IMG/VR virus record: IMGVR_UViG_3300022137_000001
Coordinates: 1-38,346 of that record
DNA length: 38,346 nucleotides
Reading direction: 5' to 3' (one strand)
Origin: a virus
A program made the translations under genes and the position numbers. Below are positions 1 through 30,802 of this stretch, piece after piece (the first letter of the stretch is position 1; each line of letters opens with the position of its first letter). A model generated the notes under the pieces. That model was not told the DNA's origin. It worked only from the letters and a program-made list of their open reading frames with translations, and did not search any database.

Positions 1-127
1 TTTTCATATATGAAAAGACAATATGTTGAAGTTTTTGAAGCAGGAAGAAAACCTCCAAATCGTTACTGGGTAGGTTTATCACGTAGAGACAGTAGATTTA
101 ATGTAGTAAGGACTAATCAGAATAATT
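1..127. repeat. Terminal overlap copy A, identical to 38220-38346
   Basis: Base-by-base comparison of both ends (ttttcatatatgaaaagaca...gactaatcagaataatt) shows no mismatch. Confidence 0.95.
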
Positions 128-5174: not shown

Positions 5175-6446
5175 ATGGGACTTAGAGTACTCGGTATAAA
5201 AGAGGAAAGCGAATATGGAAAACCAGCTATTAGTCCAGATTGGCATCAACAAGGCACAAAAATAAGTGCCAGTCTTAATGCTGAGCCAGTTACAAAAACT
5301 GGTGGAAGCCGTATGATTAAAAGAGCAAGAGCTGGAGCAATCAAACCAACCTCAAGCTTTGAATCAGATGTCGACCTTAAGAGGATTGGACATTACTTTA
5401 AGGCTTTCCTTGATAATTATAAATTTACAAGTGGAACAAAAACCAACACACACGAATTCTATGGTGGAGAATCCACCTCATTAAATAGTTTTACCCTTTG
5501 GGAAACCTTCGATGTAGCCGAAAAAACCATTGTAGGAGCATTACTCGATGGTTTGAAATTAGAGGTTTCCGATGAGTTTATGACCATGGCTGCAGACTGG
5601 ATCTACAAAGACGAAACCATGGAGGAAATCGATGCTAACACTTTTGAACAAACAAGAGTTGAAGGCGATATTCCTTTAATGTTCTATGATGTGAGCTTGG
5701 AATTGGATGACGATGTTCCTCCAGGCATTGTTTCAAGTTTCAGTTTTGAGGGTAAAAACAACCTCAATCAAGATGCAACTATTGGTCTTGGTAGCCGTAT
5801 GCCTCAGAGAAAGGCTGCAGCTCAACAAAGAGAAATTACTATCTCTATGACTTCAACCCTTGAAAAAGAAACACTTGAATTGATACAGAAAGCTGAATAT
5901 GGTGAAGCAGGTACTTCACCTTCAGAGTGTAAGGTCTATAAGATACCTATTAAGGTAATAGCTAATGTATGTGAAAACCGTGCAGATATACTTGAAATTT
6001 ATTTCCCAGAATGCCTATTCTCAGTTGAGTATGAAGCAAGTGAATCTGATGAAATTGAAGTGACATTCAATTTACAGACTATGGGCACTGGAAAAGCTAA
6101 ACTTGCAGATGGAACTAGTGTAATGACTGATATGTATGTTAAATTAATTAACAATCAACCGGAAATAGCTGCTAGTGCAGATGGAACTTCAAATGTAACC
6201 GTAAAAGTTCAAAAAGCAGATAAAAGCCCAGTTTCAAGTGTTAATGTAACCTTGAAATCAAGAGATGATAAAACTATCAGTATTGACCCTTCTGCAACTG
6301 GTTCAGATGGAACAGTAACATTTGCATCAGTAGAGTATGGTAGATACAGTGCAAGTGTTGAAGGCTATAAGGTATTATCTGGTGGTCTTGTAAGTGTAAA
6401 TGAAACAACTGAAAATTTCACAATAACAGTTGAACAAGAAGAATAA
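5175..6446 (+). CDS. Major tail protein with a C-terminal beta-sandwich decoration (carboxypeptidase-regulatory-like or Ig-like)
   Basis: RBS ggtgatataagATG. The gene sits before the chaperone and tape measure genes. The C-terminus reads NVTVKVQKADKSPVSSVNVTLKSRDDK...DGTVTFASVEYGRYSASVEGYKV. Confidence 0.6.
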   Translation: MGLRVLGIKEESEYGKPAISPDWHQQGTKISASLNAEPVTKTGGSRMIKRARAGAIKPTSSFESDVDLKRIGHYFKAFLDNYKFTSGTKTNTHEFYGGESTSLNSFTLWETFDVAEKTIVGALLDGLKLEVSDEFMTMAADWIYKDETMEEIDANTFEQTRVEGDIPLMFYDVSLELDDDVPPGIVSSFSFEGKNNLNQDATIGLGSRMPQRKAAAQQREITISMTSTLEKETLELIQKAEYGEAGTSPSECKVYKIPIKVIANVCENRADILEIYFPECLFSVEYEASESDEIEVTFNLQTMGTGKAKLADGTSVMTDMYVKLINNQPEIAASADGTSNVTVKVQKADKSPVSSVNVTLKSRDDKTISIDPSATGSDGTVTFASVEYGRYSASVEGYKVLSGGLVSVNETTENFTITVEQEE

Positions 6447-6466: not shown

Positions 6467-6928
6467 ATGGCTAAAATAATAAGAATTTCAGACATCGTTG
6501 ATGGAACAAGCAAAGAAGAAAAATACATGATAAAATCACTAAATGGGGAAGTATGGCTTAGACCTTTATCACAGAAAGAAATTAATGAAATTTCTGAGAT
6601 TGAAGCTGCAGCTATTGGTACTTTTGAAACAAATGAAAAATCAAATAATTCAAGAAATAGGGCAAGGAACATTAGATCACAACTCGAAAGTAAAGGTAAA
6701 CTTTCAGTATTGAAGACTACTCAAGCTCAAAATCAAGCAAAAATCAAGGCAGTAGCATATTCACTTGATAATTCAAAATATGCTGAAGAAAAAGAACTCA
6801 TCACAGAAGAAGAACTTTTGAAAGCTCCTTCAAATGTTATAGAAGAAATCTACTCTAAAGTTCAAGAAATTTCCGGATTAAACAATGCCGAACTTGAAAG
6901 TGATGTAGAAGAGTTTCCTCAAAACTGA
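6467..6928 (+). CDS. Tail assembly chaperone (G-like)
   Basis: Acidic 153-aa ORF directly upstream of the tape measure gene. Confidence 0.55.
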   Translation: MAKIIRISDIVDGTSKEEKYMIKSLNGEVWLRPLSQKEINEISEIEAAAIGTFETNEKSNNSRNRARNIRSQLESKGKLSVLKTTQAQNQAKIKAVAYSLDNSKYAEEKELITEEELLKAPSNVIEEIYSKVQEISGLNNAELESDVEEFPQN

Positions 6929-7123: not shown

Positions 7124-10100
7124 ATGGTCTCACAACATATAATAAATGTAATACTAAAAGCAGAAGACCAAATCTCACAAACAGTTCAAAAAGTGAAAAA
7201 ACAAGTAGATGATTTCGGTAGCTCCTCTAAACAATCCTTCGACAAAAGCACTCAATCCTCAAAACAGTTTCAAGAATCAGTTGATAAAATAAGAAATCCA
7301 CTTGAAAAATCAAAAAACACCATAAAAGAAACCGGCATGGTGGGTAGAACTGCATTCCTCAACATGTCCAATGCCGAAAAACAAGCATTAATGAGCCTTA
7401 AAACTCACGAACAAAGAATGCAATCACTGGCACAGAAAATAGGTGTAGCTGGAGGAGGTGCAGTCAGAGCCTCACAACAATTCCAACAAATCAAATTGAA
7501 CCCAGAGCTATTATCTGATATACAAAGAGCTAATATTAAAATAACTGAAATGGGAGTAGACATTACCTCAACTCGTGGTAAGATAATGGTTCTTCGTACA
7601 GCTATTTCTACAAGTCTTGTTTCAACATGGGATACTGTACGTGCAAAGGTTTCAACAGTAGCCTCTTCAATCAGAACAAAATTAGGCTCAGCATTAGACT
7701 CAGTAAAAAGTAAAGTATCAGCGGTAGGTACATCATTCCAGACCATGGGGGGAATGATAGCATCAGCAATCGGTGCACTTGGAGTGAACTCAGTAAAAGA
7801 TCTTACGGTGGGACTTTCACTTTCAAGAGAGAAAATGAGTAGTTTGAATACTGCTATTATGGGTTCAAAAACTGCAAGTGATGCACTACTTGGATCTATC
7901 GATACCATGACAAATTCGTCTGTGGTTTCAATGGACCAGATGGTAAATGCAATGAACAAAATCAAACTTTCCACTTCAATGAGCAATGAACAATTATCAG
8001 GAACAAAAGACGTGGTCATGAAACTTGGTGAAGCTTCAATGCTCATGGGTAATGATACTCAAACAGCTACCTATCAAATGGGAGAAGCATTCAGTGGTCT
8101 TAACGGTGATTTCCAGATACTAAAAGAAAACTTCGGTATTACCAAGGACAAAATGAAACAGATGGGCTGGTCTGGTGAAGCATCAGATGTTGAAGGATAT
8201 ACCCATGCACTTGAAAAATGTTTATCTGGGCTTGGTGATCTTGGTGGTGTAATGGACACTACAAGCGGTTCTATTGCAAGAGTTCAGAAAATATTCAGAA
8301 CTGCAGGTAGACAAATGGGAGACCAGGTAACACCTTACATCAAAAAAGCTTGTGATGAATTCATAAGATTGAACGATGAAATGCCTGGTTTAACAAAAGG
8401 TATTATTGCTGCAGGTGGAGCACTTGCAGGATTTGCTACTGTAGCACCTTACATTAATGATTTTGCAAAACCAATCAGCGATTCTATTACCTCAATAAGA
8501 ACAATAGGTGAAACTGCAAGAGATGCTTGTGGATTAATAAAAGATGGTTTCGGTGCTGCAAGAACAGCTATTGATTTGATGAGAGGAGCAACAACACTTG
8601 CAACTTTGGCTGAAGAGGGTAATGCCTTTGCTTCAGCATTACTTGCTGCAAAAGATACTGCATTGGCTGCTAAAAATTGGCTTGTAGCTCAATCACAGGC
8701 AGCATTAAATCTCGTAATGGATGCAAATCCTATAATGATTGTGGTTATTGCTATTGCAGCATTAATCGCAATACTTGTATACCTGTACTATAATAATGAG
8801 CAAGTTCATGATGCAATAGATGGATTATTTGCTGCTATGCAGGGACTAGGAGAATGGTTAATGAGTAATCTTGTTCCAGCAATACAAAGTTTCGGTGAAT
8901 TATTAATGCAGATATTTGAAGCTATTACTGAAAGTGAAGCATTCCAGTTCCTGGTTGAAATTTTAACTATTGTAGCTGATACAATCATGCAAATAATTGA
9001 TTTATTCACACAATTTGCAGAAGGGCAAATAAGCTTGCAAGATTTGCTTCTTGGTGTAGGTCAAGCACTACTAGATGGCTATGTTAACATTTTGACCACT
9101 ATCCTTACAACTGTTGCAAATTTCGTTCTTCAAATATTAACTATTGCAGTTCAAGGAGCAATGAATGTAGTATTAGGTATCATTTCATGGATTAGTCAGA
9201 TTCCATTCCGTGTTGGAAATTATATTCTTCAAACTGTAACAAGAATCATTACTGGTATGGCTCAATGGGTAGCAAATGCAAGAGCAAAGGCTTCTGCAAT
9301 GGTCTCAGCAGTTGTATCATTTATTAGTAGATTACCTGGTAGAGTCTACGGTTTCATTGTAAATACTGCAACAAGAATTGCAAATGGTGCTAGTCAATGG
9401 GTATCAAATGCTAGAAGTAAAGCTTCACAAGTCGTTAGTGCTGTAATTTCACACATCAGCCAGTTACCTGGAAGAGTATATCAAGAATTTATTAACATTG
9501 GATCTAGAATTCTTTCAGCAGGTAGCGACTTGGTTAATAAGGCAAGGCAAGTAGGTAGGAACATTGTAAATGGAATGTTAAATGCAATGGGTATACATTC
9601 ACCGGGTATTATTCAGAACAAGGTAACTGCCGAGTTTGAAAACACCTTGGATAATGTTGCAAATCTTACAAGCAAAGCTGAAAATGTCGGTGCGGCGGTT
9701 GGAGAAGGCTTAGTATCTTCTTATAGTGATTTCAAATTACCCGAACAAACATTAACTGCAAATGTACAAACCAATACTGATACTTCCAATAATAATGATG
9801 AAGATTCACAAGAAGAAGTGGATAATCAAAACAACACACTAAATTCCATGGTTGCAAATGTTAATGACAAATATAATCAAATGAAATCATTAGCCGGAAT
9901 TGACCTCTCACAATTACAACTAATGAACACTCAAGCATTTACTAATATCCGTGCAAATGAAATGGCTCAAATGAATATGATGACTAATCATATCAATACT
10001 AGCCTTTTAAATATCTTGAATTATACTAGAAATGGTTTAAATCAAGCATATAACATTACACGTGAAAACCTTAGTAAAATGCAGAACAGCACTACCAGAA

Positions 10101-11317
10101 TAACAAAAGAAATGGTTAAAGCCTGGAATAGTATGAAAAACAGCATTGTTTCAGCTGCGAAAAATATTAAGAAAGAATCAAGTAGCTATTTCAATCAATT
10201 AGGTGCTACCATTGGTGGTTTTTATCGAAAACTTCAAAATCCTAACCTTTGGGGTGCAGGACCATCTAATTCTGGTATGATGCAAAGAAACCGTGTAGTT
10301 GGTAGAGCAAGTAGTGGAGGTTCTAGTAGTGGAATGAGTGTAATGAGCAGAATATTGGCTTCAAGTATTCGTCGTGAAAAACATATACCTGAATATATTA
10401 GTACTGTTCAAGCTCAAACCATACCCTGCATAACCCCTGGAATCATTGAATATAATGCTAACAATGGAAGAATAAACACTACAGAACTTATACGCGGTGG
10501 CGTGGTAAGTCCAGATTGCTTACCAACTAACAGTAGAAGTGGTGCTGGTCCTTGGGAAAACACAGTATATCCAAATGTACGAAAAATTAAGGATACTGTG
10601 AATACTTGGAGTATGAAAGGACCAAGCATACATACAGGTGCCGGAAACGTTGATACGGGGCTTGCATTCAAAGTCCGTGATTTTGCAACAGGCACACCAA
10701 ACATTAGCTTTGATAGTTTCAAACAAATGGCACAAGCAATATTCCGTACAGTTCATTATGATCATTATAGTGATTCTGAAAAGTATGGGTCTTGGCAAAA
10801 TGCAATAGCTGCAGGTAAATGTAATTGTAGTGATGGAGCAGATGCACTATTGGCATTGGCTAATACTTGTGGTTTCTCAGGTGAAAAGGTTCATTGTTAT
10901 TGGGATGGTGAAGGTCATTTCTGTACCCGGATTAATGGGCAAATCATGGATACAACTGCAATGCAACAAAGAGGTACTTGGGTTTCTTCTGCTGTAACTG
11001 GTTATGGTAGTGGTCCTGCACCTAAACATGTTGGTCGTCAAACCGTGGCTCGTAGCAGTGGATTCACAGAATCAGAAACAGAAGATAACGGTTCAAATGG
11101 TGAATTCATATTAGGTGGCGAAATCACTGTAAAACATGAATTTGAAAACCTTCCTGAAAATGTTGATGAAGCAGCTATTGTTCAAATGATTCAAGAAACC
11201 ACCAACAGTGATGGTTGGATTAAGAATCTTGCAAACAATATCCGTTTCCAGGTTGCAGATGCAAAAGCAAAGACAAAGATTGAAAGAAGACAAAATCGTA
11301 GTCGAGGCATATCATGA
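7124..11317 (+). CDS. Tape measure protein with a C-terminal transglutaminase-like Cys-His-Asp module
   Basis: 1397 aa with a central hydrophobic block (IMIVVIAIAALIAILVYLYY). It has three ~43-aa tandem repeats (IS-x-LPGRVY...QWV-x-NAR-x-KAS, nt ~9182-9590). The C-terminus reads GKCNCSDGADALLALANTCGF...GEGHFCTRINGQIMDTTA. Confidence 0.85.
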   Translation: MVSQHIINVILKAEDQISQTVQKVKKQVDDFGSSSKQSFDKSTQSSKQFQESVDKIRNPLEKSKNTIKETGMVGRTAFLNMSNAEKQALMSLKTHEQRMQSLAQKIGVAGGGAVRASQQFQQIKLNPELLSDIQRANIKITEMGVDITSTRGKIMVLRTAISTSLVSTWDTVRAKVSTVASSIRTKLGSALDSVKSKVSAVGTSFQTMGGMIASAIGALGVNSVKDLTVGLSLSREKMSSLNTAIMGSKTASDALLGSIDTMTNSSVVSMDQMVNAMNKIKLSTSMSNEQLSGTKDVVMKLGEASMLMGNDTQTATYQMGEAFSGLNGDFQILKENFGITKDKMKQMGWSGEASDVEGYTHALEKCLSGLGDLGGVMDTTSGSIARVQKIFRTAGRQMGDQVTPYIKKACDEFIRLNDEMPGLTKGIIAAGGALAGFATVAPYINDFAKPISDSITSIRTIGETARDACGLIKDGFGAARTAIDLMRGATTLATLAEEGNAFASALLAAKDTALAAKNWLVAQSQAALNLVMDANPIMIVVIAIAALIAILVYLYYNNEQVHDAIDGLFAAMQGLGEWLMSNLVPAIQSFGELLMQIFEAITESEAFQFLVEILTIVADTIMQIIDLFTQFAEGQISLQDLLLGVGQALLDGYVNILTTILTTVANFVLQILTIAVQGAMNVVLGIISWISQIPFRVGNYILQTVTRIITGMAQWVANARAKASAMVSAVVSFISRLPGRVYGFIVNTATRIANGASQWVSNARSKASQVVSAVISHISQLPGRVYQEFINIGSRILSAGSDLVNKARQVGRNIVNGMLNAMGIHSPGIIQNKVTAEFENTLDNVANLTSKAENVGAAVGEGLVSSYSDFKLPEQTLTANVQTNTDTSNNNDEDSQEEVDNQNNTLNSMVANVNDKYNQMKSLAGIDLSQLQLMNTQAFTNIRANEMAQMNMMTNHINTSLLNILNYTRNGLNQAYNITRENLSKMQNSTTRITKEMVKAWNSMKNSIVSAAKNIKKESSSYFNQLGATIGGFYRKLQNPNLWGAGPSNSGMMQRNRVVGRASSGGSSSGMSVMSRILASSIRREKHIPEYISTVQAQTIPCITPGIIEYNANNGRINTTELIRGGVVSPDCLPTNSRSGAGPWENTVYPNVRKIKDTVNTWSMKGPSIHTGAGNVDTGLAFKVRDFATGTPNISFDSFKQMAQAIFRTVHYDHYSDSEKYGSWQNAIAAGKCNCSDGADALLALANTCGFSGEKVHCYWDGEGHFCTRINGQIMDTTAMQQRGTWVSSAVTGYGSGPAPKHVGRQTVARSSGFTESETEDNGSNGEFILGGEITVKHEFENLPENVDEAAIVQMIQETTNSDGWIKNLANNIRFQVADAKAKTKIERRQNRSRGIS

Positions 11318-13494
11318 AAAAATATACGGTCTATCCTGATGATACAAGAGGGATAGGTAATATAATGAATACAATAAGTAGTGTAGAAGAGATGAGTGGG
11401 AGTAATTGTACTCCTACTCTCACCGATACTACTTTAAATTATGATAATATTAATTTTCCAGTTTTTGAAATAAAATTAAAAGGTGAAACAGCATTACTCA
11501 CAATAGACAACACACAAGAAGAAGGTACTTATAAATGGAGTGTAATGCCTTCTACTGACATGGAACTGGTTGCAACATTAAAAGATACAAATAATGAGCC
11601 TATTACTGGTGTTGATGTCTATTTCTATGAAAATGATGTACTGATAGGTTCCAGTGAAACTGTTGAAGGTACATGTTCTTGCACTTACAATACAGATTTA
11701 AGTGGAGATCATACAATTGTTGTTAAAACCTATGATGAGTTGGAATATGATGCTACAAGTACCAGTGTTCATATTTTTGTTTATTATAATACCAGTCTAG
11801 GTTTAACGGTTCAACCAACGGTGATTGATTCAGCAGATACAATAAATATCTATGCCTCTCTTGTAAATGAATACACTTCAGAGGGGGTAGTTGGTGAAAC
11901 AGTTGATTTCTACAACAACGGTACATTATTGGGTTCAGGTATTACTGAAAACGATGGTGTAGCTACTTATACTGTCAATGCGCATGACTTGAAAACTGTT
12001 AGTGACAATGTTAATTTTCAAGCAAAATTTAGCAAGACGGCACAGTATCTTGCTTCAGAATCTAGTAGCTTTGAAACTACTATAAATCTCAGTAAACCTT
12101 CAATTATTTTACAGTACCCTATACAACAATATAAGCAAGGAGATACTGTCTCTTTAACTGTTGTTGTAACTGATAAGCATAGTGTAAGATTGGAAGGAAT
12201 ACAATTACAGATTAATATAAATGGTGTTGAATATACTGGTGTTACAGATGAAAGTGGAGAATATAGTATGGATTATGTTTTCCCTTCAACAGAAGACCTT
12301 ACAGTAAATATTTCAAATGTTGAAGATAATTTCTATCAATCAACAAGTATTACTAATACCGTGAAATGTGGTAAACTCACAACTTCCACCAATCTTTCCT
12401 TGAATGCTAGTAGTAATGAAATTAGTTTTGTTGAAGACTATTCACTTGTTGCTACAGTCATAGCAAGTGATGAATCAATAGTTACTGGTGATGTGGTATT
12501 CTATGAAGACGATAACATCATAGGTACTGTAGCACTAAGTAATGGTGTTGCCTCATTAACATATCAGAACAGTACTATTGGAGAACATACCTATTATGCC
12601 GTTTTTAACGAAACAGACAATTATCTAAGTTCTACTAGTAATGAATCATCTATTACTATAATTAAAGATACTCCTAAAATCTCCTTACTTACTGGAGATT
12701 TATACACTGGTTGGGAAACTGTATGTTTCTTAACTGATAGTGCAGGTACACCTCTTTCAAATAAAAATGTGGTAATTTCAGTTTCTTCAAATAATTCTTC
12801 ATTCTCAGATTATTCAAAAACAACCTCTGATGAAGGAAAAGCTAGTCTAAATATGAACTGGAATCCTTGTACCGCCTATGCAAAATACGTTTTCAATGGA
12901 GATTCACAGTACAATCCAGTTTCACTAAATTCAACATTCAAAATCAAAGACCCTCTTTCACAAACAAAATATCCCGGCACTATTACAAGTGTACCTGCAA
13001 CAGATAGTGATGGTAAAAGGGCATGGGACGATAAAACTTGTACAAGCGATTCTGATACACTTGTCTGTAATGATATTACAGGTAGCAACGGTTCCTATCC
13101 AACACCTGCAAAAATACAGAAAAATAACGGGTCTTGGGGATTCACAATACCCGAAGATGCTACTGTAACTAAAATTGTTGTCTCATGGAAAGCGAAAAAT
13201 GGTACTAAAAGTAGTGTGAGTGCTTGTATTAATATTCCAGCTGCAAACTTTACAATATATAATGTAGGTTCATCTAATCTAACAGGCAAGGGTGTTGTGG
13301 GAGGTAAAAATACTTATACAACAAGTACAATCACTTTAACAAGCCTAAATGGAGCTACACCTACACAAATCAACGATAAAATGAGTTTCACATTGTTCAC
13401 AGACAAAAAGAACACAACAGGAAATACCGGTTCTTTCTACATCATGGGCTTAAAAATGATTGTTTATTATATTCCTAAACAGGGAGATGTATAG
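11314..13494 (+). CDS. Virion adhesin-like protein with about five tandem Ig-like repeats plus a C-terminal beta-sandwich domain
   Basis: ATGA overlap with the tape measure gene. Repeats are visible by eye (DVYFYENDVLIGSS...; TVDFYNNGTLLGSG...DGVATYTV; DVVFYEDDNIIGTVALSNGVASLTY). Confidence 0.65.
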   Translation: MKKYTVYPDDTRGIGNIMNTISSVEEMSGSNCTPTLTDTTLNYDNINFPVFEIKLKGETALLTIDNTQEEGTYKWSVMPSTDMELVATLKDTNNEPITGVDVYFYENDVLIGSSETVEGTCSCTYNTDLSGDHTIVVKTYDELEYDATSTSVHIFVYYNTSLGLTVQPTVIDSADTINIYASLVNEYTSEGVVGETVDFYNNGTLLGSGITENDGVATYTVNAHDLKTVSDNVNFQAKFSKTAQYLASESSSFETTINLSKPSIILQYPIQQYKQGDTVSLTVVVTDKHSVRLEGIQLQININGVEYTGVTDESGEYSMDYVFPSTEDLTVNISNVEDNFYQSTSITNTVKCGKLTTSTNLSLNASSNEISFVEDYSLVATVIASDESIVTGDVVFYEDDNIIGTVALSNGVASLTYQNSTIGEHTYYAVFNETDNYLSSTSNESSITIIKDTPKISLLTGDLYTGWETVCFLTDSAGTPLSNKNVVISVSSNNSSFSDYSKTTSDEGKASLNMNWNPCTAYAKYVFNGDSQYNPVSLNSTFKIKDPLSQTKYPGTITSVPATDSDGKRAWDDKTCTSDSDTLVCNDITGSNGSYPTPAKIQKNNGSWGFTIPEDATVTKIVVSWKAKNGTKSSVSACINIPAANFTIYNVGSSNLTGKGVVGGKNTYTTSTITLTSLNGATPTQINDKMSFTLFTDKKNTTGNTGSFYIMGLKMIVYYIPKQGDV

Positions 13495-13495
13495 C

Positions 13496-16321
13496 ATGGT
13501 TACTGTAACAGGATATGCAGGAAGTATAAGTCAAACCGAAGGAAAATACTCCAGCACAAAATACTATCGAAAATGGAATCAGACAGATAATCTCAAAAAA
13601 AGCGGTTCTACCATATACTGTGGCGCTTTATCAAACAATAACAACAATACTTTGATTGGTAGTAAAGCTGGTACATGGAATCGTCCTTCAACAATTAGTC
13701 TTAAAAACTTCGGATTCAACATACCTGAGGGTGCAAGAATTACAAGGATACGTGTTGGCTATTCACATTGGAGAGTAAAATACGGAGGTGCATATGGTAG
13801 TTTCCCTGCACCAACAATATCACTTTTAAACACAAAATATTCAAAAAAAGGTTATAGTTTACCTTTCGATACAAATAAAAGTAAAAGCTTTGTTACTGAT
13901 TTTACAGGTCAATTCACATCAAGTATGATTAATAATGCCAATTTTGGTGTGAAAATTAACTATCCTGCAAATACAAGTAGTAATGTTTGTAGAATAGCAT
14001 TACAGAATGTTTTTATACAGATTACATATGAAACACAGGAAGTATACATTAATGTTTCTTCTACTGAGGAAGAAGTATATGTTAATGAAGAAACAAGTCT
14101 ACTTTTAACTGTTTCAAGTAAAAATGGCAGTATATCGTCCTATACCTCCAAGGTAGAATTCACATTACCAACAGGAATAACATTCACTGGAAAAACTGAC
14201 GGTGTAGGAACATTTACACAAACAGGACAAAAAGTAGTGTGGACTGGAAACTTCAATAATTCCAAAAGCATAAATGTAACTTTTAACGTGAAATCAACAA
14301 GTACTGGCTCAAAACTTATAACTTTTCAAGAAACAGGATCTCTTGCTTCAACAAAAATACATTTAACAATACTTGAAAATAATGCAAAGTTAACATGTGA
14401 TTATATAGCTATTCATGAAGAAAAAGAAGAATTCCAGATTAACTTTGATATTACTGCAAATGAAATAGGATTACCTGCTAACGATGTAACCGTAAATTTT
14501 CCAGAAACATTTACTATACTTGATGTGGAATCTGAAGATGTTGTGATACCTGTAGGTGTTAATAATTCATTCACATTTTCAACAAATTTTACAGAACAAA
14601 CAAATAATTTCATTAGTTTTACAGTTTCATGTTCAACTGCAGGTCTACAATCATTTAGCACTATTTTTAATGGTAAAACTGTTAATTATCAAGTTAAAAT
14701 TAAACCTTCAAATCTTACAATTCCTTATTATGCTTGTATAAGACTTAATGAAGAGGAATTAGACCGTCTAGGTGATGGTAAAACCTATACAATTACAAGC
14801 ATAATGAAAATTATAATTGATGAAGAAAATCTTAGTCTATTTGACCCTTACGATTATAATTACCGTGTAGGTGTTTTTAACGCAATGGAAAATGAAAACT
14901 ATACCTCTATAGATTATCTTTCAAATTCACGGTGGAGTGAACCTGTAAGTGAAGCTAACAGTGAAGAAGAAATATCCTTAACATTTGATTACTGCAAAGG
15001 TTACCCTGTCATTATTTTCATCACTGGAGAATATATTGAAGCAAATGCAAGAGCCGTAAAACTACAATATACTCACCCTGTAGTGATGGAGAAGCAATTC
15101 ATGGAAAACCTGGAAGAACCAGGACTATTTCCATATCCACTAAAAAAGTTGGCTTCCGTTGAAGAATACTGTATTACGGAGTTAAAAACTCAGAAAATAA
15201 CAAACAATATCCGTGCCTACAAAATGGATATGTCTGGTTTGATTGTTAATGAAAACACAGTAGTTCAAGGTGTAACTGTTGATTTTGATATAATCTGTGA
15301 TTCAGAATTCTCATTACTAATGAAACTAATTACAAATGACAAGACTGGTCAGAGAAGTATTAACATCAATGAAACAACAGGTTCTGCAAGTTTAGGTGGA
15401 GAATTCGACCTTTGGGGATTAGATTTTGAAGATTTCTTAGAAGACAACCTAGAAAACGTAGAATTAGAAATCAATCTCAGTAATCCTTTTAACCATGATG
15501 CACACATTGAAATTAACAATCTCCATGTAACATTCCATTATATCGAAGTTGCTGATTCAGTTGTAAAAGCATATGTCAATGGAAAAGACCTTCGTTATTA
15601 CAATATGTTCCTTGAATCTGTAACAGTACCAGCTGGTACTGAAAACGAGGTGAAATATCTTAATGTTGATGGTACAGATTCAACATTAGCATATAGATCC
15701 AACATCCAAAAAAAGAAAATCACAATAAAATTCATTGTTGGTGGTTGTGATTTAACCGAAACATCAAAGTTCATGGAAAGAATAGGTCGTTTGTTTTCTA
15801 ATGAAAGGGACAAATTCAATAAACCAATACTAAACAGTATTGAATTCAGTAACTATCCAGACCGTGTATGGTACTTCTTAATGGAAGATGCTATAGATGC
15901 CGATGTAGAATTTGCCGAGTATGAAGGAAAAATAGAATTAATCGTACCTGCAGGAACAAGCTACAATAAAAACATGACAATAACCAATGCGTGTGGAGTA
16001 AATAGCAGTATAGCAAAAATAAACCCAGAACTATATATTCTTGCTAATGATGATGAAATCTCAATTACAGAGGAAAATTCACAACAAAAATTCATAATCC
16101 ATGGTGAAGACCTCTCAGGACAACTGCTAAGGATTGATTGTGCAAATAGAAAAGTCTACAAACTAACTGAAAGTAGCGATGTAACTGGTGAATATATTAA
16201 CACGGATATTACAGATGAAGTGGACTTTAATTCCGATTGGTTCATTGTTTATGGTGAATATAACTTCAGTTGCAATAATACAGCTAATATTCAGTCTGTT
16301 AGATTCTTTGAAAGGTGGTAG
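13496..16321 (+). CDS. Distal tail protein (Dit-like domain at the C-terminus) with a long N-terminal beta-sandwich extension
   Basis: ATG at 13496 follows ggagatgtatagc. The C-terminal segment VKAYVNGKDLRYYNMF...IEFSNYPDRVWYFLMED resembles siphovirus tail component (Dit) proteins. Confidence 0.55.
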   Translation: MVTVTGYAGSISQTEGKYSSTKYYRKWNQTDNLKKSGSTIYCGALSNNNNNTLIGSKAGTWNRPSTISLKNFGFNIPEGARITRIRVGYSHWRVKYGGAYGSFPAPTISLLNTKYSKKGYSLPFDTNKSKSFVTDFTGQFTSSMINNANFGVKINYPANTSSNVCRIALQNVFIQITYETQEVYINVSSTEEEVYVNEETSLLLTVSSKNGSISSYTSKVEFTLPTGITFTGKTDGVGTFTQTGQKVVWTGNFNNSKSINVTFNVKSTSTGSKLITFQETGSLASTKIHLTILENNAKLTCDYIAIHEEKEEFQINFDITANEIGLPANDVTVNFPETFTILDVESEDVVIPVGVNNSFTFSTNFTEQTNNFISFTVSCSTAGLQSFSTIFNGKTVNYQVKIKPSNLTIPYYACIRLNEEELDRLGDGKTYTITSIMKIIIDEENLSLFDPYDYNYRVGVFNAMENENYTSIDYLSNSRWSEPVSEANSEEEISLTFDYCKGYPVIIFITGEYIEANARAVKLQYTHPVVMEKQFMENLEEPGLFPYPLKKLASVEEYCITELKTQKITNNIRAYKMDMSGLIVNENTVVQGVTVDFDIICDSEFSLLMKLITNDKTGQRSININETTGSASLGGEFDLWGLDFEDFLEDNLENVELEINLSNPFNHDAHIEINNLHVTFHYIEVADSVVKAYVNGKDLRYYNMFLESVTVPAGTENEVKYLNVDGTDSTLAYRSNIQKKKITIKFIVGGCDLTETSKFMERIGRLFSNERDKFNKPILNSIEFSNYPDRVWYFLMEDAIDADVEFAEYEGKIELIVPAGTSYNKNMTITNACGVNSSIAKINPELYILANDDEISITEENSQQKFIIHGEDLSGQLLRIDCANRKVYKLTESSDVTGEYINTDITDEVDFNSDWFIVYGEYNFSCNNTANIQSVRFFERW

Positions 16322-16323
16322 TT

Positions 16324-18420
16324 ATGGGTTTTACAGTAATTGTTCTAGATCAAGACGAAAATCCATTGGAATATCTTGATTCTGAAAATCTTGAAATTGA
16401 ACAGACAAGTGAAGTTGGAGAATTACAGACTCTCACTATCACTTATCCACTTGATGATGAAGATATAAACAAAACAAGAAAACTATTCAAAATAGGTAAC
16501 AAGATGTGGATTCCAGGTACAAACGGTTTAGATCCTTGCCTTTATGTAATCTCAAACAGTACAAAATATGATTATTGGGACAAAAACCACATAGAAATAG
16601 AATTGGAAGAGGTGCTTGTTGAACTAAATTATGTTGAATTATTCAAACAATATTCAGCTGAAACCAAAACCATTAACAGAACATTACTTGAAGAACAATT
16701 CGGCAGCTATTTCAATATAGGTACAGTAGAATCAGCACTTGGAAGTCGTGGAAGCGTAGCATTAAACGGTACAATGACCAAACTAGAACTTCTAAGATAC
16801 ATTGAGGAAGAAACTAGTAATGTATTCCAAACAAGATATGTGAAAGACCCCGAGAAAAACTTAATACATCGTTATCTTGATTTCCTACAACCCTCAAACG
16901 TTGGTGAAGAACATGATACAGTTATAGATCTAAGTTTTAATGCTGAAAATATTGAATATGAAATCGATGAATCAGACACTTATCGTGCTATTGCTCCAGA
17001 ATTCAGTTTAAACAGTAACACAAATAGTAGTGGTGGTAGTGTAGCTGCAGAAATAACACGTACAGATTTACAAGGCATAATTGACAACTGGAGCAAACTT
17101 GCAGTAACTAAAGGTCAAAGCATACCTATGATAATAGAAAAACAGACCTCAACTGACTCAAACGGTAACACTACTGAATCAGAAATAACAACGGCATATT
17201 GGGCTGCACCATTCAGCAAAACTGCAGGAACACTCTATATCAAAGATGATGTGGACACGGGTGTGGAATATCAGGAAATATATTCACATCCAGATGCAAC
17301 GACAAAGGTTTCAACACCTAAGATAGGCACTATACAAACTTCAGAAACAAACCCGTACGTGATCTATAATAGATGTGCAAATACCTTGATTGATAAAAGG
17401 TATCCTGAAATCAATCTTGATGTTGAATTAAAGGATATTGAACAAGTTACAGAAAATAATAACAGTTTCAGTATCTATGACCGTGTATATGTGAAAATAC
17501 CCGATTATGAGAAATTAATCCGTGCACAAGTACTGAAAATAGTTAAAAATCCTCAAATGCCAGGAGAAACGAAGATTACATTAGGCAATGCTGACATTGG
17601 AACAAGAATAAATCAAGTCGCAACAACAATAGAAGCCAAATCAACATATACAATTAAAAAAGGGCAGTATGTTACTGCAAAACTTAAAAATGCAGATGGA
17701 CCATTAACCAGTAAATATTGTTCTATAACAGTTATAAAAGATTCATCAACATTAACATCATCTAAAACATCATACAAGACAGTTTCAAACACTACTCAGA
17801 AAGTAGAATATTCTTACAGTAAATGTGGTGTAAGTAGTGATAAAAAAACTATTATGGCAATAGGAAAACCTTCAACCGCTGCTGAATCTTCAAGATGGGC
17901 TTATACATACTGGAAAAGTGTTTTCAAGAATCGTTGCCCTCATTGTGGACATGCAAGTCTTGTATGGGACATTTGGTGGGCTGGAAAAAACACCAATTAT
18001 GGATATTCAAGTTGCCGTGGAAACAGTGAAGGAGGGTCTGTTGAAGGTCACATCTTCTGCAAACATTGTGACGCAGATTATGGGGTTGTTGGTGGAAATG
18101 AACATTATAGCTGGAGTAACTATAAACTTACACGTGTTTCCGGTCCAGTTCGTAGTAGTGAATCAGAAGCTAACAAACTTAAAAATGGTAAAATGGTGAA
18201 AATAACCAAAACAACCACATCAAAGAAAGTTCCAAATACCACAACAACAACTTCAACAGATAAAGGTTTCACCAAAGCATACAGTAAGAAAACAGACGGT
18301 AACGGAGATTTTAGCTTAAAAATAAATCTTGCCAAAGGGGAATACACAATAAAATTCAACTTTGGTGGGGATATAGAAAATGCTGCTTCAAGCAAAGAGG
18401 CAAAATTGATTGTTAAATAA
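16324..18420 (+). CDS. Tail-tip protein (Tal / prophage tail endopeptidase-like N-domain) with an inserted zinc ribbon and a C-terminal Ig-like domain
   Basis: MGFTVIVLDQDENPLEYLDSENLEIEQTSEVGELQTLTITYPLDDE resembles the N-terminus of phage minor structural / tail endopeptidase proteins. CPHC...CKHC lies at 17935-18069. Confidence 0.55.
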   Translation: MGFTVIVLDQDENPLEYLDSENLEIEQTSEVGELQTLTITYPLDDEDINKTRKLFKIGNKMWIPGTNGLDPCLYVISNSTKYDYWDKNHIEIELEEVLVELNYVELFKQYSAETKTINRTLLEEQFGSYFNIGTVESALGSRGSVALNGTMTKLELLRYIEEETSNVFQTRYVKDPEKNLIHRYLDFLQPSNVGEEHDTVIDLSFNAENIEYEIDESDTYRAIAPEFSLNSNTNSSGGSVAAEITRTDLQGIIDNWSKLAVTKGQSIPMIIEKQTSTDSNGNTTESEITTAYWAAPFSKTAGTLYIKDDVDTGVEYQEIYSHPDATTKVSTPKIGTIQTSETNPYVIYNRCANTLIDKRYPEINLDVELKDIEQVTENNNSFSIYDRVYVKIPDYEKLIRAQVLKIVKNPQMPGETKITLGNADIGTRINQVATTIEAKSTYTIKKGQYVTAKLKNADGPLTSKYCSITVIKDSSTLTSSKTSYKTVSNTTQKVEYSYSKCGVSSDKKTIMAIGKPSTAAESSRWAYTYWKSVFKNRCPHCGHASLVWDIWWAGKNTNYGYSSCRGNSEGGSVEGHIFCKHCDADYGVVGGNEHYSWSNYKLTRVSGPVRSSESEANKLKNGKMVKITKTTTSKKVPNTTTTTSTDKGFTKAYSKKTDGNGDFSLKINLAKGEYTIKFNFGGDIENAASSKEAKLIVK

Positions 18421-28816: not shown

Positions 28817-28903
28817 GTATATATTTCTTCTTAAAATAATTAACTTAATTAATTGTTTTTTACAAATATTAAACTAATTTTTTTTCAAGTTGAGGTTTTT
28901 TTT

Positions 28904-30802
28904 ATGGTAAATGAGAAGATTACAGATATGTTTGTTGAAGGGTTGTTAAAAGAGGCAAATATTGATTTTATGCCTAATGGGAGCAGTATTAAAGAAATTG
29001 AAGATGCATTGAAAACGGCATCTAAAAGAGGAACGAATAAGGTAGGATTTCCAGAGTTTGTAGGAAAATCAAAAGATTTTATATTAGTTATTGAAGATAA
29101 AGCAGAAACCAACAAACAAGCATTATATTGTGAAAAAAATTCAAATCGGCTAGATTTAAGGGTAAATGCACTAACTGATTATGCAGAGAATGGTGCGTTA
29201 CATTATGCACAACATATAATAAACAATACAAATTTTAAAAAAATTTTCGCCTTTGGATGTAGTGGAGATGAGAAACACCATATTATCAGACCAATATATG
29301 TAGATGAAAACGATTACACATTATTAGAGGAAGTTGAAAACTTTGAAAACTTTAACGAGGAAAATATAGAACAATATTATAAAGAAATTGTACTTAATGA
29401 AACTCCTAATGAAGTTATAGAAATAGAAGAAGTATTAGAAAAATCAAAAGAACTAAACGAACTGTTAACATCACGAGGTAGCTTAACAGATACAGAAAAA
29501 CCATTAGTAGTATCAGCAATATTATTGGCATTAAATGAAAATGCAGACATTGACCAATTAATGAAAGCAGATAAAATAAGTAATGATGGAAAGATAATAA
29601 ATGATGCAGTTTGTTGCAACTTGCAAAGAATAAAAGTAGAACGAAAAGTAGAAGCTATAATGCATCAATTTAATTTTATAAAAGATAGACCCAATCTTAA
29701 TGAAGTGGATGAAAATTTAGGTAAAACTCCATTAAAGTATTTTACAGAATATATTAAAGATAAAATATTTCCTGCAATCTCAACGACACATGAAGATATA
29801 TTAGGTTTCTTTTATGGTGAATTTATTAAATATAGTGGGGGTGATGGTCAATCATTAGGGATTGTACTAACACCCACACACATAACGGAATTATTCTGCG
29901 ATTTATTAGAAATTACTCCGAAAGACAAGGTATTAGACCCTTGTGCAGGCACTGGGAGTTTTTTAGTATCAGCAATGAACAGAATGATAAAGTCAGCTAA
30001 AACAAAAGAAGAGAAGAAATATATAAAGGAAAATAATTTGCATGGGATTGAATTAAAAGAAAATATGTTTTCAATTGCTACAACAAATATGATTTTGCGG
30101 GGGGATGGAAAAACAAACTTAATTTGTGCCGACTTCTTAAAACAAGATCCGCAAGAACTCAGAAAAAATAAATATACTGTAGGAATGATGAATCCCCCAT
30201 ACTCTTTAAGAAGGAATCAGGAAACAGCTTATTTGTCAGAAATACATTTTGTCAAACATTTATTAGATTCTTTAGATGATAATGCAAGATGTGGAGTTAT
30301 TGTTCCGCAATCCGCAATGGTTGGAAAAAATAAAGAAGATAAAAACATTAAAAAAGAAATACTTAAGAATCACACTTTGGAAGGAGTTATAAGTCTTAAT
30401 GGTGATACATCTTTTTATAGGGTAGGAATAATACCTTGCATTGCAATATTTACAGCCAACAGACCACACCCACAAGAAAAACGATGTAAATTTATAAACT
30501 TTGAAGATGACGGTTATAAATTGTGCAAACATATAGGGATTGTTAAAACTGAACGAGCTATTGAACGAAGAAAACATTTATTAAAATGTTGGAGAGATCA
30601 AATTGATGCACCAAGTAAATTTATGGTAAAATCAACTATAAAACCAACTGATGAATGGTTACATTCTTTTTATTATTTTAATGATGAACTACCTAATAAA
30701 GAAGAATTTATTAGAACAATGAGCAATTATTTAACATTCGAATTTGATTTAGTTATGCAAAATAAAGATTATTTACTAATGGATGGTAATAATTATGACT
30801 AA
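28904..30802 (+). CDS. BcgI-A-like fusion: N-terminal PD-(D/E)xK nuclease-like domain plus gamma-class N6-adenine DNA methyltransferase
   Basis: FPEF-x13-LVIEDK (29051-29101). Motif I VLDPCAGTGSFL (from 29936). Motif IV NPPY (30191-30202). First ATG with a tgaggt RBS is at 28904. Confidence 0.75.
   Translation: MVNEKITDMFVEGLLKEANIDFMPNGSSIKEIEDALKTASKRGTNKVGFPEFVGKSKDFILVIEDKAETNKQALYCEKNSNRLDLRVNALTDYAENGALHYAQHIINNTNFKKIFAFGCSGDEKHHIIRPIYVDENDYTLLEEVENFENFNEENIEQYYKEIVLNETPNEVIEIEEVLEKSKELNELLTSRGSLTDTEKPLVVSAILLALNENADIDQLMKADKISNDGKIINDAVCCNLQRIKVERKVEAIMHQFNFIKDRPNLNEVDENLGKTPLKYFTEYIKDKIFPAISTTHEDILGFFYGEFIKYSGGDGQSLGIVLTPTHITELFCDLLEITPKDKVLDPCAGTGSFLVSAMNRMIKSAKTKEEKKYIKENNLHGIELKENMFSIATTNMILRGDGKTNLICADFLKQDPQELRKNKYTVGMMNPPYSLRRNQETAYLSEIHFVKHLLDSLDDNARCGVIVPQSAMVGKNKEDKNIKKEILKNHTLEGVISLNGDTSFYRVGIIPCIAIFTANRPHPQEKRCKFINFEDDGYKLCKHIGIVKTERAIERRKHLLKCWRDQIDAPSKFMVKSTIKPTDEWLHSFYYFNDELPNKEEFIRTMSNYLTFEFDLVMQNKDYLLMDGNNYD

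What the first reader, a model, noticed from the sequence alone, without database searches (positions are those of the whole stretch)
10700..11000. The tape measure protein ends in a transglutaminase-like Cys-His-Asp module (possible pseudomurein-cutting ejection enzyme)
The segment GKCNCSDGADALLALANTCGFSGEKVHCYWDGEGHFCTRINGQIMDTTA has the order and spacing of the transglutaminase-core / papain-like triad. That pattern is G-x-C-x-x-x-A...G-[FI]-x-x-x-x-V, then H-x-x-x-x-[IV], then D-x-T. The candidate residues are Cys codons 10820/10826, His 10916 and Asp 10949.

The characterised pseudomurein endoisopeptidases of methanogen viruses (PeiP, PeiW) use a Cys-His-Asp triad of this fold. Bacterial phages often embed wall hydrolases in the tape measure to breach the wall at infection. 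An equivalent domain here would be the entry-side counterpart of the lysis enzyme.
Basis: partly seen in the sequence, partly recalled or inferred. Interest (0 to 1): 0.65.

Follow-up and report, generated by a model that had tools for sequence, protein, structure and literature searches.

The report
Pei-like wall-cutting module in tape measure
The tail tape measure protein of this methanogen virus ends in a cysteine-peptidase domain related to the enzymes that cut the methanogen cell wall (pseudomurein), which makes it a testable candidate for how such viruses breach the wall when they infect.

Summary
ORF 7124..11317 (+, 1397 aa) is a tape measure protein (TMP). Residues ~1140-1300 form a distinct domain carrying Cys1235, His1265 and Asp1276.

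This triad, plus Asn1234 and Tyr1215, is invariant in 148 of 148 diverse family representatives.

The window sequence alone scores just under Pfam's Transglut_core cutoff. Family-level evidence is clear:
- A family profile hits the solved pseudomurein endoisopeptidases PeiP and PeiW (E about 1e-5).
- Profile-profile comparison with Pei endolysins gives 95.7% probability.
- The AlphaFold model puts Cys1235 at a helix N-terminus and matches only transglutaminase/papain-like hydrolases, PeiP among them.

The module sits 67-139 residues from the C-terminus in 114 long homologs. It was found only in viruses or proviruses of pseudomurein-walled Methanobacteriales. It coexists with separate endolysins in MSTV1, vir075, PhiF3 and Drs3.

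Best reading: a virion-borne, entry-side pseudomurein peptidase, the archaeal analogue of the TMP-embedded lysins of phages T5 and TM4. It is a sister family to Peptidase_C71, not a member. Activity and presence in virions are untested. I found no published description.

The parts
7124..11317 (+). Tail tape measure protein (TMP), 1397 aa
   Evidence: It matches PHROG TMP families: phrog_58 E=5.9e-38, phrog_1272, phrog_991 and others. phrog_38386 (unknown function) scores 951 bits. It lies between the tail tube (5175..6446), a 153-aa ORF (6467..6928) matching vir075's annotated tail assembly chaperone, and Dit-like/Tal-like tail genes.
8699..9196 (+). Hydrophobic, membrane-span-like segments of the TMP (aa 526-560 and 607-691)
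   Evidence: Kyte-Doolittle 19-residue windows reach 3.03 for aa 526-560 and 1.7-1.9 for aa 607-691. That these insert into the host membrane after ejection is inference from bacterial siphophages.
10541..11023 (+). Pei-like transglutaminase-fold cysteine peptidase module (aa 1140-1300)
   Evidence: Family HMM match over aa 1140-1300, 213.6 bits. The AlphaFold2 model has mean pLDDT 81.6 and pTM 0.73. The family profile hits PeiP/PeiW in the PDB. hhalign against Pei gives 95.7%. Foldseek hits are described under the other parts.
10721..10990 (+). High-confidence catalytic core (aa ~1200-1289)
   Evidence: Ten-residue blocks of the model reach mean pLDDT about 90-94 here. The Pfam Transglut_core match covers aa 1196-1270.
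10757..10768 (+). Y-x-x-Y motif (Tyr1212, Tyr1215), shared with Pei endolysins as Y-x-[FY]-Y-Y-N
   Evidence: Tyr1212 is conserved in 147/148 and Tyr1215 in 148/148. The motif aligns to the invariant Y..YYN of PeiP, PeiW, PhiF1 and MSTV1 Pei.
10823..10834 (+). N-C-x-D motif: Asn1234, catalytic Cys1235 (codon 10826-10828), Asp1237
   Evidence: Asn and Cys are invariant in 148/148; Asp1237 is in 139/148. Cys1235 is the first residue of helix 96-109 of the model. It aligns to the invariant NCTD of the Pei enzymes.
10916..10918 (+). Catalytic His1265
   Evidence: Invariant in 148/148. It lies in a beta-strand of the model. It aligns to the invariant G-H of the Pei enzymes.
10949..10957 (+). Catalytic Asp1276 in the D-T-T motif
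   Evidence: Asp is in 148/148, Thr1278 in 147/148 and Thr1277 in 122/148. It lies directly after the next beta-strand. The profile alignments to Pei stop before this residue, because Pei has a longer His-Asp spacer.
11024..11314 (+). C-terminal tail after the module (aa 1301-1397), ending in a basic stretch and ...RGIS
   Evidence: In 114 long homologs the catalytic Asp lies 67-139 aa (median 94) from the C-terminus. Many tails end in basic residues followed by G-[VI]. Its function was not tested; docking in the tail tip is inference.
18456..20213 (+). Candidate separate lysin: 585-aa ORF with a PeiR-like (Peptidase_C39-like) domain at aa ~175-306 (nt 18978-19373)
   Evidence: PDB 22oc 'P210 WT' matches at E=1.9e-19. 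Pfam Peptidase_C39 gives E=0.019, below threshold. BLASTP against vir075 PeiR gives E=0.016 and aligns YFCAP/YTCCP and GHY. It is context for the entry-versus-exit division of labour and is not firmly established.

Best explanation
The last ~260 residues of the tape measure protein contain a ~160-residue transglutaminase-fold cysteine peptidase (nucleophile Cys1235, His1265, Asp1276). [quoted passage not shown]

Proposed mechanism:
1. The TMP is packed inside the tail tube with its C-terminal end at the tail tip. This is established for bacterial siphophages and inferred here.
2. On receptor binding the TMP is expelled C-terminus first. This brings the module against the pseudomurein sacculus of the Methanobrevibacter-type host.
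3. The module cuts peptide cross-links locally, most likely an epsilon-lysine isopeptide bond as Pei does. The bond is inferred.
4. This opens a hole through which the hydrophobic TMP segments (aa 526-691) and the DNA reach the membrane.

A pseudomurein-binding repeat domain is not needed, because the tail holds the enzyme on the wall. Cell lysis at the end of the cycle is left to a separate enzyme.

Shown: homology, fold, strict conservation of the triad, fixed position near the TMP C-terminus, restriction to Methanobacteriales viruses, and coexistence with endolysins.

Inferred: catalytic activity, substrate and bond, retention in the virion, and timing at entry.
For: TMP identity and position in the tail module.

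The triad plus Asn1234 and Tyr1215 are invariant in 148/148 representatives whose mean column identity is about 44%.

Pfam Transglut_core matches 22/26 members, best E=4.6e-6.

The family profile against the PDB finds PeiP 8z4f at E=6.5e-6 and PeiW 8jx4 at E=9e-6. The next hit is at E=0.097.

hhalign against four Pei endolysins gives 95.7% probability and E=8.6e-9. It aligns Y..YYN, NC.D and GH.

The AF2 core has pLDDT >90. Cys1235 sits at a helix N-terminus, with His and Asp on or after successive strands.

Foldseek against the PDB lists TGase 4xz7, 3isr, CPR-C4, PeiP 8z4f (prob 0.97-1.00), LapG and the N-acetyltransferases. In BFVD the best hit outside TMPs is PeiP.

The exhaustive search finds 265 clusters, nearly all at the extreme C-terminus of 1300-2700-aa proteins. 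The Asp lies 67-139 aa from the end in 114 long proteins.

Host restriction:
- Three different queries against 50,697 phage records find only Methanobacteriales viruses.
- All 12 verified loci from 185,579 species genomes are Methanobacteriaceae, an unnamed archaeal MAG (L009), or Drs3/PhiF3-like virus contigs.

Separate lysins coexist with the module:
- MSTV1 has a Pei.
- vir075 has PeiR.
- PhiF3 has ORF27.
- Drs3 has ORF35.
- The window has a candidate.

TMP-borne wall hydrolases are established in T5, TM4 and phiIPLA35 (PMC6116005).
Against: - No activity data exist for any member of this family.
- The window sequence itself is just below Pfam's Transglut_core gathering score (21.1-22.7 against 23 bits). 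It does not match Peptidase_C71.
- Foldseek E-values are modest (3e-3 and weaker) and TM-scores normalised to the query are only 0.36-0.45. Only ~100 of the 161 residues superpose.
- The catalytic Asp is not covered by the sequence alignments to Pei, because the His-Asp spacer differs: 11 residues here against about 24 in PeiP.
- A folded ~160-residue domain must either sit in the tail-tip cavity or fold after ejection. Nothing here tests that.
- TMP C-termini are proteolytically trimmed in some phages (lambda gpH, my own knowledge). The module might therefore not be present in mature virions.
- psiM2's TMP lacks the module, so it is not universally required to infect pseudomurein-walled hosts.
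- The genome scan used a pattern covering only 78/148 of known family diversity. The taxonomy of the 265 clusters could not be read.
Confidence: 0.7

Rival explanations
1. The module is a maturation protease. It cleaves the TMP itself or a neighbouring tail protein during tail assembly and has no role on the host wall.
For: Papain/transglutaminase-fold enzymes include many self-processing proteases; CPR-C4 and LapG are among the structural neighbours. C-terminal processing of TMPs is known in some phages (lambda gpH, my own knowledge). A conserved ~95-residue tail follows the module.
Against: The closest relatives by sequence profile are wall-cutting Pei enzymes, not processing proteases. Drs3's PMBR-carrying endolysin candidate matches the TMP-module HMM as well as it matches the Pei HMM. 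A general assembly function would not be expected to be confined to viruses of pseudomurein-walled hosts.
Confidence: 0.1
2. The module works at exit rather than entry. Surplus or cleaved TMP acts as a second endolysin late in infection.
For: It is homologous to endolysin catalytic domains. The window's own dedicated lysin is only a sub-threshold candidate.
Against: Four relatives carry a separate endolysin or endolysin candidate besides the module. The module lacks the pseudomurein-binding repeats typical of PeiP/PeiW (PMC2989375). Its invariable fusion to the ejected end of a virion protein matches entry lysins of bacterial phages.
Confidence: 0.08
3. The module acts as a transglutaminase, forming bonds rather than breaking them. 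For example it might covalently anchor the tail tip to wall peptides or cross-link tail proteins.
For: The best Pfam family and the top Foldseek hit are transglutaminases. Pseudomurein peptides contain Glu and Lys residues of the kind transglutaminases join (PMC4592898).
Against: The specific homologues with known activity (Pei) are hydrolases. Nothing in the tail module suggests a need for cross-linking. Many microbial members of this fold are proteases (PMC10318531).
Confidence: 0.05
4. The resemblance is a chance motif or a catalytically dead structural domain.
For: The window sequence alone is below Pfam's threshold. A single-sequence PDB search gave only spurious hits.
Against: Five residues are invariant in 148/148, including the whole triad, against about 44% mean column identity. 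Sequence-profile, profile-profile and fold evidence are independent and agree.
Confidence: 0.02

Closest known systems
Pseudomurein endoisopeptidases PeiP (psiM2) and PeiW (psiM100), MEROPS C71 / Pfam PF12386; structures 8z4f and 8jx4
   Same: Both have the transglutaminase-type fold and a Cys-His-Asp triad. Both share the motifs Y-x-[FY]-Y-Y-N, N-C-x-D and G-H. Both are encoded by tailed viruses of pseudomurein-walled methanogens. Both are cysteine enzymes suited to anoxic, reducing habitats (PMC2989375, PMC4592898).
   Different: The module is fused to the C-terminal end of a 1397-aa virion protein rather than being a ~300-aa soluble endolysin. It has no N-terminal pseudomurein-binding repeats. 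The His-Asp spacer is short, 11 residues against about 24. It lacks the conserved Cys-rich C-terminal part of Pei. It has its own ~55-residue N-terminal helix/beta subdomain. The window sequence does not match PF12386, and only 2/26 members reach E<0.01. The presumed role is entry rather than exit.
Tape-measure-borne virion-associated lysins of bacterial siphophages (T5 Pb2, mycobacteriophage TM4, S. aureus phiIPLA35)
   Same: A wall-degrading catalytic domain is embedded in the TMP, which is ejected through the tail at infection. The presumed job is local wall digestion ahead of DNA passage (PMC6116005).
   Different: Those domains cut bacterial murein, and the review calls the phiIPLA35 domain a muramidase; that the T5 and TM4 motifs are metallopeptidase-like and Rpf-like is my recollection. 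Here the fold is a Pei-like cysteine peptidase and the wall is archaeal pseudomurein. I found no archaeal example in the held literature.
Pfam Transglut_core (PF01841) superfamily: bacterial and archaeal transglutaminase-like cysteine proteases (e.g. 4xz7, 3isr, LapG)
   Same: Same fold, triad order, and nucleophile at a helix N-terminus.
   Different: The match is generic. The window sequence scores 21.1-22.7 bits against a cutoff of 23. These proteins are not virion components and do not act on pseudomurein.
Drs3 ORF35 (pseudomurein-binding repeat protein) catalytic domain
   Same: Its C-terminal domain (aa 173-268) matches the TMP-module HMM (E=2.9e-13) as well as the Pei HMM (E=7.1e-13). 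It has a short His-Asp spacer like the TMP module.
   Different: It is a free 300-aa protein annotated as a pseudomurein-binding repeat protein, so it has endolysin architecture. It is encoded in the same genome as a TMP that carries the module.

Membership tests
Tail tape measure protein | Long, largely helical protein encoded between the tail assembly chaperone and the distal tail/baseplate genes, matching TMP profiles | tested here: met
   phrog_58 E=5.9e-38 and more than 10 other TMP PHROGs. Flanked by Phage_tube_2 (5175..6446), a 153-aa ORF at 6467..6928 that matches vir075's annotated tail assembly chaperone, SPP1_Dit-like (13460..16321) and Prophage_tail (16315..18420).
Transglutaminase-like / papain-like cysteine peptidase superfamily (Pfam Transglut_core PF01841) | Profile match at or above the curated gathering score | tested here: inconclusive
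   Window: 18.5 bits (whole TMP), 21.1 (C-terminal 297 aa) and 22.7 (161-aa domain), against a cutoff of 23. 22/26 family members match at E<0.01, best 4.6e-6.
Transglutaminase-like / papain-like cysteine peptidase superfamily (Pfam Transglut_core PF01841) | Cys-His-Asp triad in that order, Cys at the N-terminus of a helix, His and Asp on following beta-strands | tested here: met
   Cys1235 is the first residue of model helix 96-109. His1265 is in strand 124-131. Asp1276 lies just after strand 134-136. All three are invariant in 148/148. The three-dimensional distances between the residues could not be measured.
Transglutaminase-like / papain-like cysteine peptidase superfamily (Pfam Transglut_core PF01841) | Fold similarity to solved members | tested here: met
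   The Foldseek PDB top hits are all of this fold: 4xz7, 3isr, 7ob6, 8z4f, LapG, the NATs and menin. Probability is 0.97-1.00 for the best, E from 3e-3, TMq 0.36-0.45.
Pseudomurein endoisopeptidase Pei (MEROPS C71, Pfam Peptidase_C71 PF12386) | Match to the PF12386 profile | tested here: not met
   No PF12386 hit for the window protein at E<=1. Only 2 of 26 family members reach E<0.01, best 0.0044.
Pseudomurein endoisopeptidase Pei (MEROPS C71, Pfam Peptidase_C71 PF12386) | Detectable homology of the catalytic domain to PeiP/PeiW | tested here: met
   Family profile against the PDB: 8z4f E=6.5e-6, 8jx4 E=9e-6. hhalign 95.7%, E=8.6e-9. PeiP is the best non-TMP structural match in BFVD.
Pseudomurein endoisopeptidase Pei (MEROPS C71, Pfam Peptidase_C71 PF12386) | N-terminal pseudomurein-binding repeats (PMBR, PF09373), as in PeiP/PeiW | tested here: not met
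   No PMBR hit anywhere in the TMP at E<=1. PeiP/PeiW architecture as described in PMC2989375.
Pseudomurein endoisopeptidase Pei (MEROPS C71, Pfam Peptidase_C71 PF12386) | Hydrolysis of the Ala-epsilon-Lys isopeptide bond of pseudomurein; thiol- and divalent-cation-dependent | not testable with these tools
   This needs recombinant protein and sacculi or synthetic peptides (assay in PMC4592898).
Virion-associated (entry) lysins carried by tape measure proteins | Wall-hydrolase-type catalytic domain within the TMP polypeptide | tested here: met
   The domain is in frame within the TMP ORF, with no stop or frameshift. The same arrangement is seen in five named viruses and in 114 long homologs.
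Virion-associated (entry) lysins carried by tape measure proteins | Domain present in the mature virion and active on the host wall | not testable with these tools
   This requires virion proteomics or zymography, for example on MSTV1 or Drs3.

The most novel reading that the evidence does not exclude
This is the founding member, as far as description goes, of a large unannotated family of virion-borne pseudomurein hydrolases: at least 265 clusters at 50% identity. It would be the first entry-side cell-wall enzyme proposed for tailed archaeal viruses. It is a sister family to Pei, with its own architecture and possibly a different bond specificity. Methanobacteriales siphoviruses would then split wall cutting between a tape-measure enzyme for entry and a PeiW-type or PeiR-type endolysin for exit.
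Probability: 0.6. Interest if true: 0.7.

Novelty: new variant of a known kind. Interest (0 to 1): 0.62.

Why it matters
A 2024 review of archaeal virus entry treats pseudomurein hydrolases only as exit enzymes and calls passage of the cell envelope at entry largely a mystery (PMC10791045). How archaeal viruses cross the wall when they infect is therefore essentially unknown.

A conserved, host-restricted Pei-like enzyme on the ejected end of the tape measure gives a concrete and testable answer for the Methanobacteriales. That order includes the dominant methanogens of the human gut and the rumen.

It also adds a large, diverse pool of candidate pseudomurein-cutting domains that work without a binding module. 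These could be useful for protoplasting methanogens, for in situ probing of them, or for anti-methanogen (methane mitigation) enzymes alongside PeiW, PeiP and PeiR.

Current databases label these proteins only 'tape measure', 'prominin' or 'hypothetical'.

Tried and rejected
- Single-sequence PDB search of the C-terminal 297 aa gave only spurious alphaRep and MMP-8 hits. NCBIfam gave nothing relevant.
- The word-indexed protein search found only 2 homologs with the single sequence and 17 with the profile. The exhaustive search was needed.
I replaced it with a hand-made degenerate pattern covering 78/148 known members. Five of its 17 hits were chance matches in bacterial genomes, rejected by HMM.
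- Two real hits sat in MAGs labelled Clostridia and Bacteroidales. I first considered them possible bacterial-phage occurrences. Their TMP, and for L014 also the next tail protein, are Drs3/PhiF3-like, so I rejected that.
- I considered that this genome lacks any endolysin, so that the TMP module might double as the lysis enzyme. I withdrew this when ORF 18456..20213 showed a C39/PeiR-like region.
- Follow-up on that region failed: no homologs in the indexed search; the single-sequence AlphaFold model had pLDDT 45, unusable, so no fold search was run on it; the phage tblastn gave only unannotated hits.
- Literature: Medvedeva et al. 2023 (the source of vir075 and vir249) is not held and could not be checked. 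A 'PeiR/P210' search returned only irrelevant papers.
- The Rfam, tRNA and tandem-repeat scans of the window added nothing to the finding.
- A megablast of the window against the phage collection found no match.
Full report
**1. What is at the coordinates**

The quoted peptide is real. It is residues 1231-1279 (nt 10814-10960) of a 1397-aa ORF at 7124..11317 on the + strand. The cysteine codons are at 10820 (Cys1233) and 10826 (Cys1235). His1265 is at 10916 and Asp1276 at 10949.

The ORF is a tape measure protein (TMP). It matches more than ten PHROG TMP families (phrog_58 E=5.9e-38) and phrog_38386, a family of unknown function, at 951 bits. It lies between a tail tube gene (5175..6446), a 153-aa ORF that matches vir075's annotated tail assembly chaperone (6467..6928), a Dit-like gene (13460..16321) and a Prophage_tail/Tal-like gene (16315..18420).

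The first and last 127 bases of the window are identical, so it is a complete circular assembly of about 38.2 kb. It carries terminase, portal, Mu-F-like minor capsid, protease, capsid, tail, integrase, ERF recombinase and methyltransferase genes.

**2. Is the motif more than chance?**

On its own the window sequence gives a sub-threshold Pfam Transglut_core hit on exactly this stretch: 18.5-22.7 bits against a cutoff of 23, E=1.2e-4 to 2.6e-3.

An exhaustive HMMER search of 1.84 billion representative proteins found 265 clusters at E<=1e-3. Of these, 145 are at E<=1e-10. Almost all matches lie at the extreme C-terminus of 1300-2700-aa proteins.

I aligned the domain from 148 of these representatives. 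Asn1234, Cys1235, His1265, Asp1276 and Tyr1215 are invariant in 148/148. Tyr1212, Gly1272 and Thr1278 are present in 147/148. Mean column identity in a 26-sequence subset is 44%. The triad is therefore under strict constraint, and the nucleophile is Cys1235.

**3. What the domain is**

- Sequence profiles. Of 26 diverse members, 22 hit Transglut_core at E<0.01 (best 4.6e-6), and 2 hit Peptidase_C71.
- Solved structures. A profile of the 26 sequences searched against all PDB sequences finds two significant matches: PeiP (8z4f, E=6.5e-6) and PeiW (8jx4, E=9e-6). The next hit is at E=0.097.
- Profile-profile comparison. Against an alignment of four viral Pei endolysins (psiM2, psiM100, PhiF1, MSTV1) the result is 95.7% probability and E=8.6e-9 over 76 columns. 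The alignment pairs Y-x-[FY]-Y-Y-N, N-C-x-D and G-H.
- Structure model. An AlphaFold2 model of aa 1140-1300, built from an 18-sequence alignment, has mean pLDDT 81.6, with blocks above 90 across the catalytic core. Cys1235 is the first residue of a helix. His1265 is in a beta-strand. Asp1276 follows the next strand. This is the canonical papain/transglutaminase arrangement.
- Fold search, PDB. Foldseek returns only this fold at the top: a TGase (4xz7), the 3isr cysteine protease, CPR-C4, PeiP 8z4f, LapG, arylamine N-acetyltransferases and menin. Probabilities are near 1, but E-values are modest (3e-3 and weaker) and TM-scores are 0.36-0.45. Only about 100 residues superpose.
- Fold search, viral library. 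The best hits are the Drs3 TMP, an unnamed 769-aa entry (A0A6B9J578_2, E=3.7e-9) and then PeiP itself.

**4. Membership**

The domain belongs to the transglutaminase-like cysteine peptidase superfamily and is a homologue of the Pei catalytic domain. It is not a Peptidase_C71 member in the curated sense:
- The window protein does not match PF12386.
- It has no pseudomurein-binding repeats.
- The His-Asp spacer is 11 residues, against about 24 in PeiP.
- The Cys-rich C-terminal part of Pei is missing.
- It has its own N-terminal helix/beta subdomain.

Drs3 ORF35 is a free PMBR protein, and its catalytic domain scores equally on the TMP-module HMM (E=2.9e-13) and the Pei HMM (E=7.1e-13). It bridges the two groups.

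**5. Evidence bearing on function**

- Position. In 114 long homologs the catalytic Asp lies 67-139 residues (median 94) from the C-terminus.
- Host range, phage records. tblastn of the window domain and of two divergent family members against 50,697 phage records finds only vir075, vir249, Drs3, PhiF3 and MSTV1. All five are viruses of Methanobacteriales.
- Host range, genomes. I scanned one genome from each of 185,579 species with a degenerate pattern built from the invariant residues. It gave 17 loci, 12 of which the domain HMM confirmed. Nine are in Methanobrevibacter or Methanobacteriaceae assemblies and one (L009) is in a MAG labelled only 'archaeon'. Two are in MAGs labelled bacterial, but their TMPs and neighbouring tail protein are Drs3/PhiF3-like, so they are mis-binned methanogen virus contigs.
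- Window's host. Its closest relatives among those loci are in Methanobrevibacter MAGs, at 45-48% identity. The host is inferred to be Methanobrevibacter-like.
- Division of labour. MSTV1 has a separate Pei endolysin. vir075 has a PeiR endolysin. PhiF3 has ORF27. Drs3 has ORF35. The window has a candidate: a 585-aa ORF at 18456..20213 with a C39/PeiR-like region (PDB 22oc E=1.9e-19; Pfam C39 E=0.019; alignment to vir075 PeiR across the Cys and His motifs).
- Membrane segments. The TMP has a strong hydrophobic segment at aa 526-560 and weaker ones at aa 607-691.

**6. Mechanism**

The best-supported reading is a virion-associated lysin for pseudomurein. The enzyme rides at the tip-proximal end of the TMP and is expelled first on receptor binding. 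It cuts peptide cross-links locally so that the TMP and DNA can reach the membrane.

The analogy is to the TMP-borne murein hydrolases of T5, TM4 and phiIPLA35 (PMC6116005). Pei chemistry supplies the rest of the analogy: thiol-dependent cleavage of the Ala-epsilon-Lys isopeptide bond (PMC2989375, PMC4592898).

The steps from homology to activity, substrate, virion location and timing are all inference.

The rivals are a self-processing protease, an exit enzyme, a cross-linking transglutaminase, or a dead domain. All are less consistent with the Pei relationship, the host restriction, the coexisting endolysins and the invariant triad.

Points against the main reading:
- psiM2's TMP lacks the module, so it is not indispensable for infecting such hosts. 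TMP lysins of some bacterial phages are also dispensable in the laboratory.
- The genome scan sampled only about half of the family's diversity.

**7. Novelty**

In the held literature I found no description of a Pei-like or transglutaminase-like module in a tape measure protein, and none of any entry-side pseudomurein hydrolase. A 2024 review discusses pseudomurein hydrolases only for egress and calls envelope penetration at entry an open question.

Database labels for these proteins are 'tape measure', 'prominin', 'hypothetical' or 'unknown function'.

Medvedeva et al. 2023, the source of vir075 and vir249, could not be read, so prior mention cannot be excluded.

I rate this a new variant of a known kind. 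TMP-embedded entry lysins and Pei enzymes are both known. Their combination is new, and so is an archaeal, pseudomurein-directed entry enzyme.

**8. Verdict**

Biochemical proof is still needed.

Noticed in passing
window 1-127 and 38220-38346: The first and last 127 bases are identical, so the window is a circular assembly of about 38,219 bp. A + strand ORF starting at 36705 (Phage_Mu_F-like minor capsid protein) runs off the end of the window and probably continues across the junction into the ORF that ends at 753. The ORF lister does not show it.
   Followed up: yes
window 18456-20213 (domain about 18978-19373): A 585-aa ORF just before the integrase has an Ig-like domain. Its aa ~175-306 region matches PDB 22oc 'P210 WT' (E=1.9e-19), Pfam Peptidase_C39 weakly (E=0.019), and vir075's PeiR around the catalytic Cys and His. 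It may be a PeiR-type lysin fused to a larger, possibly tail-associated protein. I could not identify what 22oc is.
   Followed up: partly
L030 5521-6423 (Drs3 ORF35): The C-terminal domain of the Drs3 'pseudomurein-binding repeat protein' matches the TMP-module HMM (E=2.9e-13) and the Pei HMM (E=7.1e-13) about equally. It has a short His-Asp spacer. It looks like an intermediate between endolysin and TMP versions of the domain.
   Followed up: partly
L014 and L023: Two contigs binned into MAGs labelled 'Clostridia bacterium' (49 kb) and 'Bacteroidales bacterium' (3 kb) encode TMPs. L014 also encodes a tail protein. These are 25-42% identical to those of Methanobacterium viruses Drs3 and PhiF3. 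They are probably mis-binned methanogen virus contigs.
   Followed up: partly
L028 6521-10673: A related provirus lies on a 518-kb JGI contig, and its fragment P0001 is 94% identical to the window module. Its tape measure gene is split into four called ORFs (1012, 158, 181 and 49 aa). This is either provirus decay or sequencing errors.
   Followed up: no
window 10820-10924: The window's module is unusually cysteine-rich around the active site. It has Cys1233, 1249, 1258 and 1267 besides Cys1235. At positions 1258 and 1267 most relatives have Gly and Trp; at 1233 and 1249 Cys is the commonest residue but stays below half (41/148 and 60/148). Possible metal or disulfide chemistry was not examined.
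   Followed up: no
window 11024-11314 and homologs: The tail after the module ends in a basic stretch followed by Gly and a hydrophobic residue in many TMPs of this family (...RSRGIS here...RARGV and ...RARGI elsewhere). It may be a docking or processing signal.
   Followed up: no
L031 29511-30239 (PhiF3 ORF27): ORF27 is annotated as PeiW-like pseudomurein endoisopeptidase. By eye its sequence shows C39/PeiR-type motifs (YTCGPSS ... GGHYVYL), and it did not match the Pei HMM.
   Followed up: no
window 25654-25726: A perfect (ATT)x24 microsatellite lies in the early/replication region. The adjacent 26-28 kb stretch has very high GC skew (0.447) and many ORFs of 50-80 aa.
   Followed up: no
window 28853-31319: The viral genome carries an N6 DNA methylase (649 aa) followed by a type I restriction-modification specificity-subunit-like gene (178 aa).
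   Followed up: no
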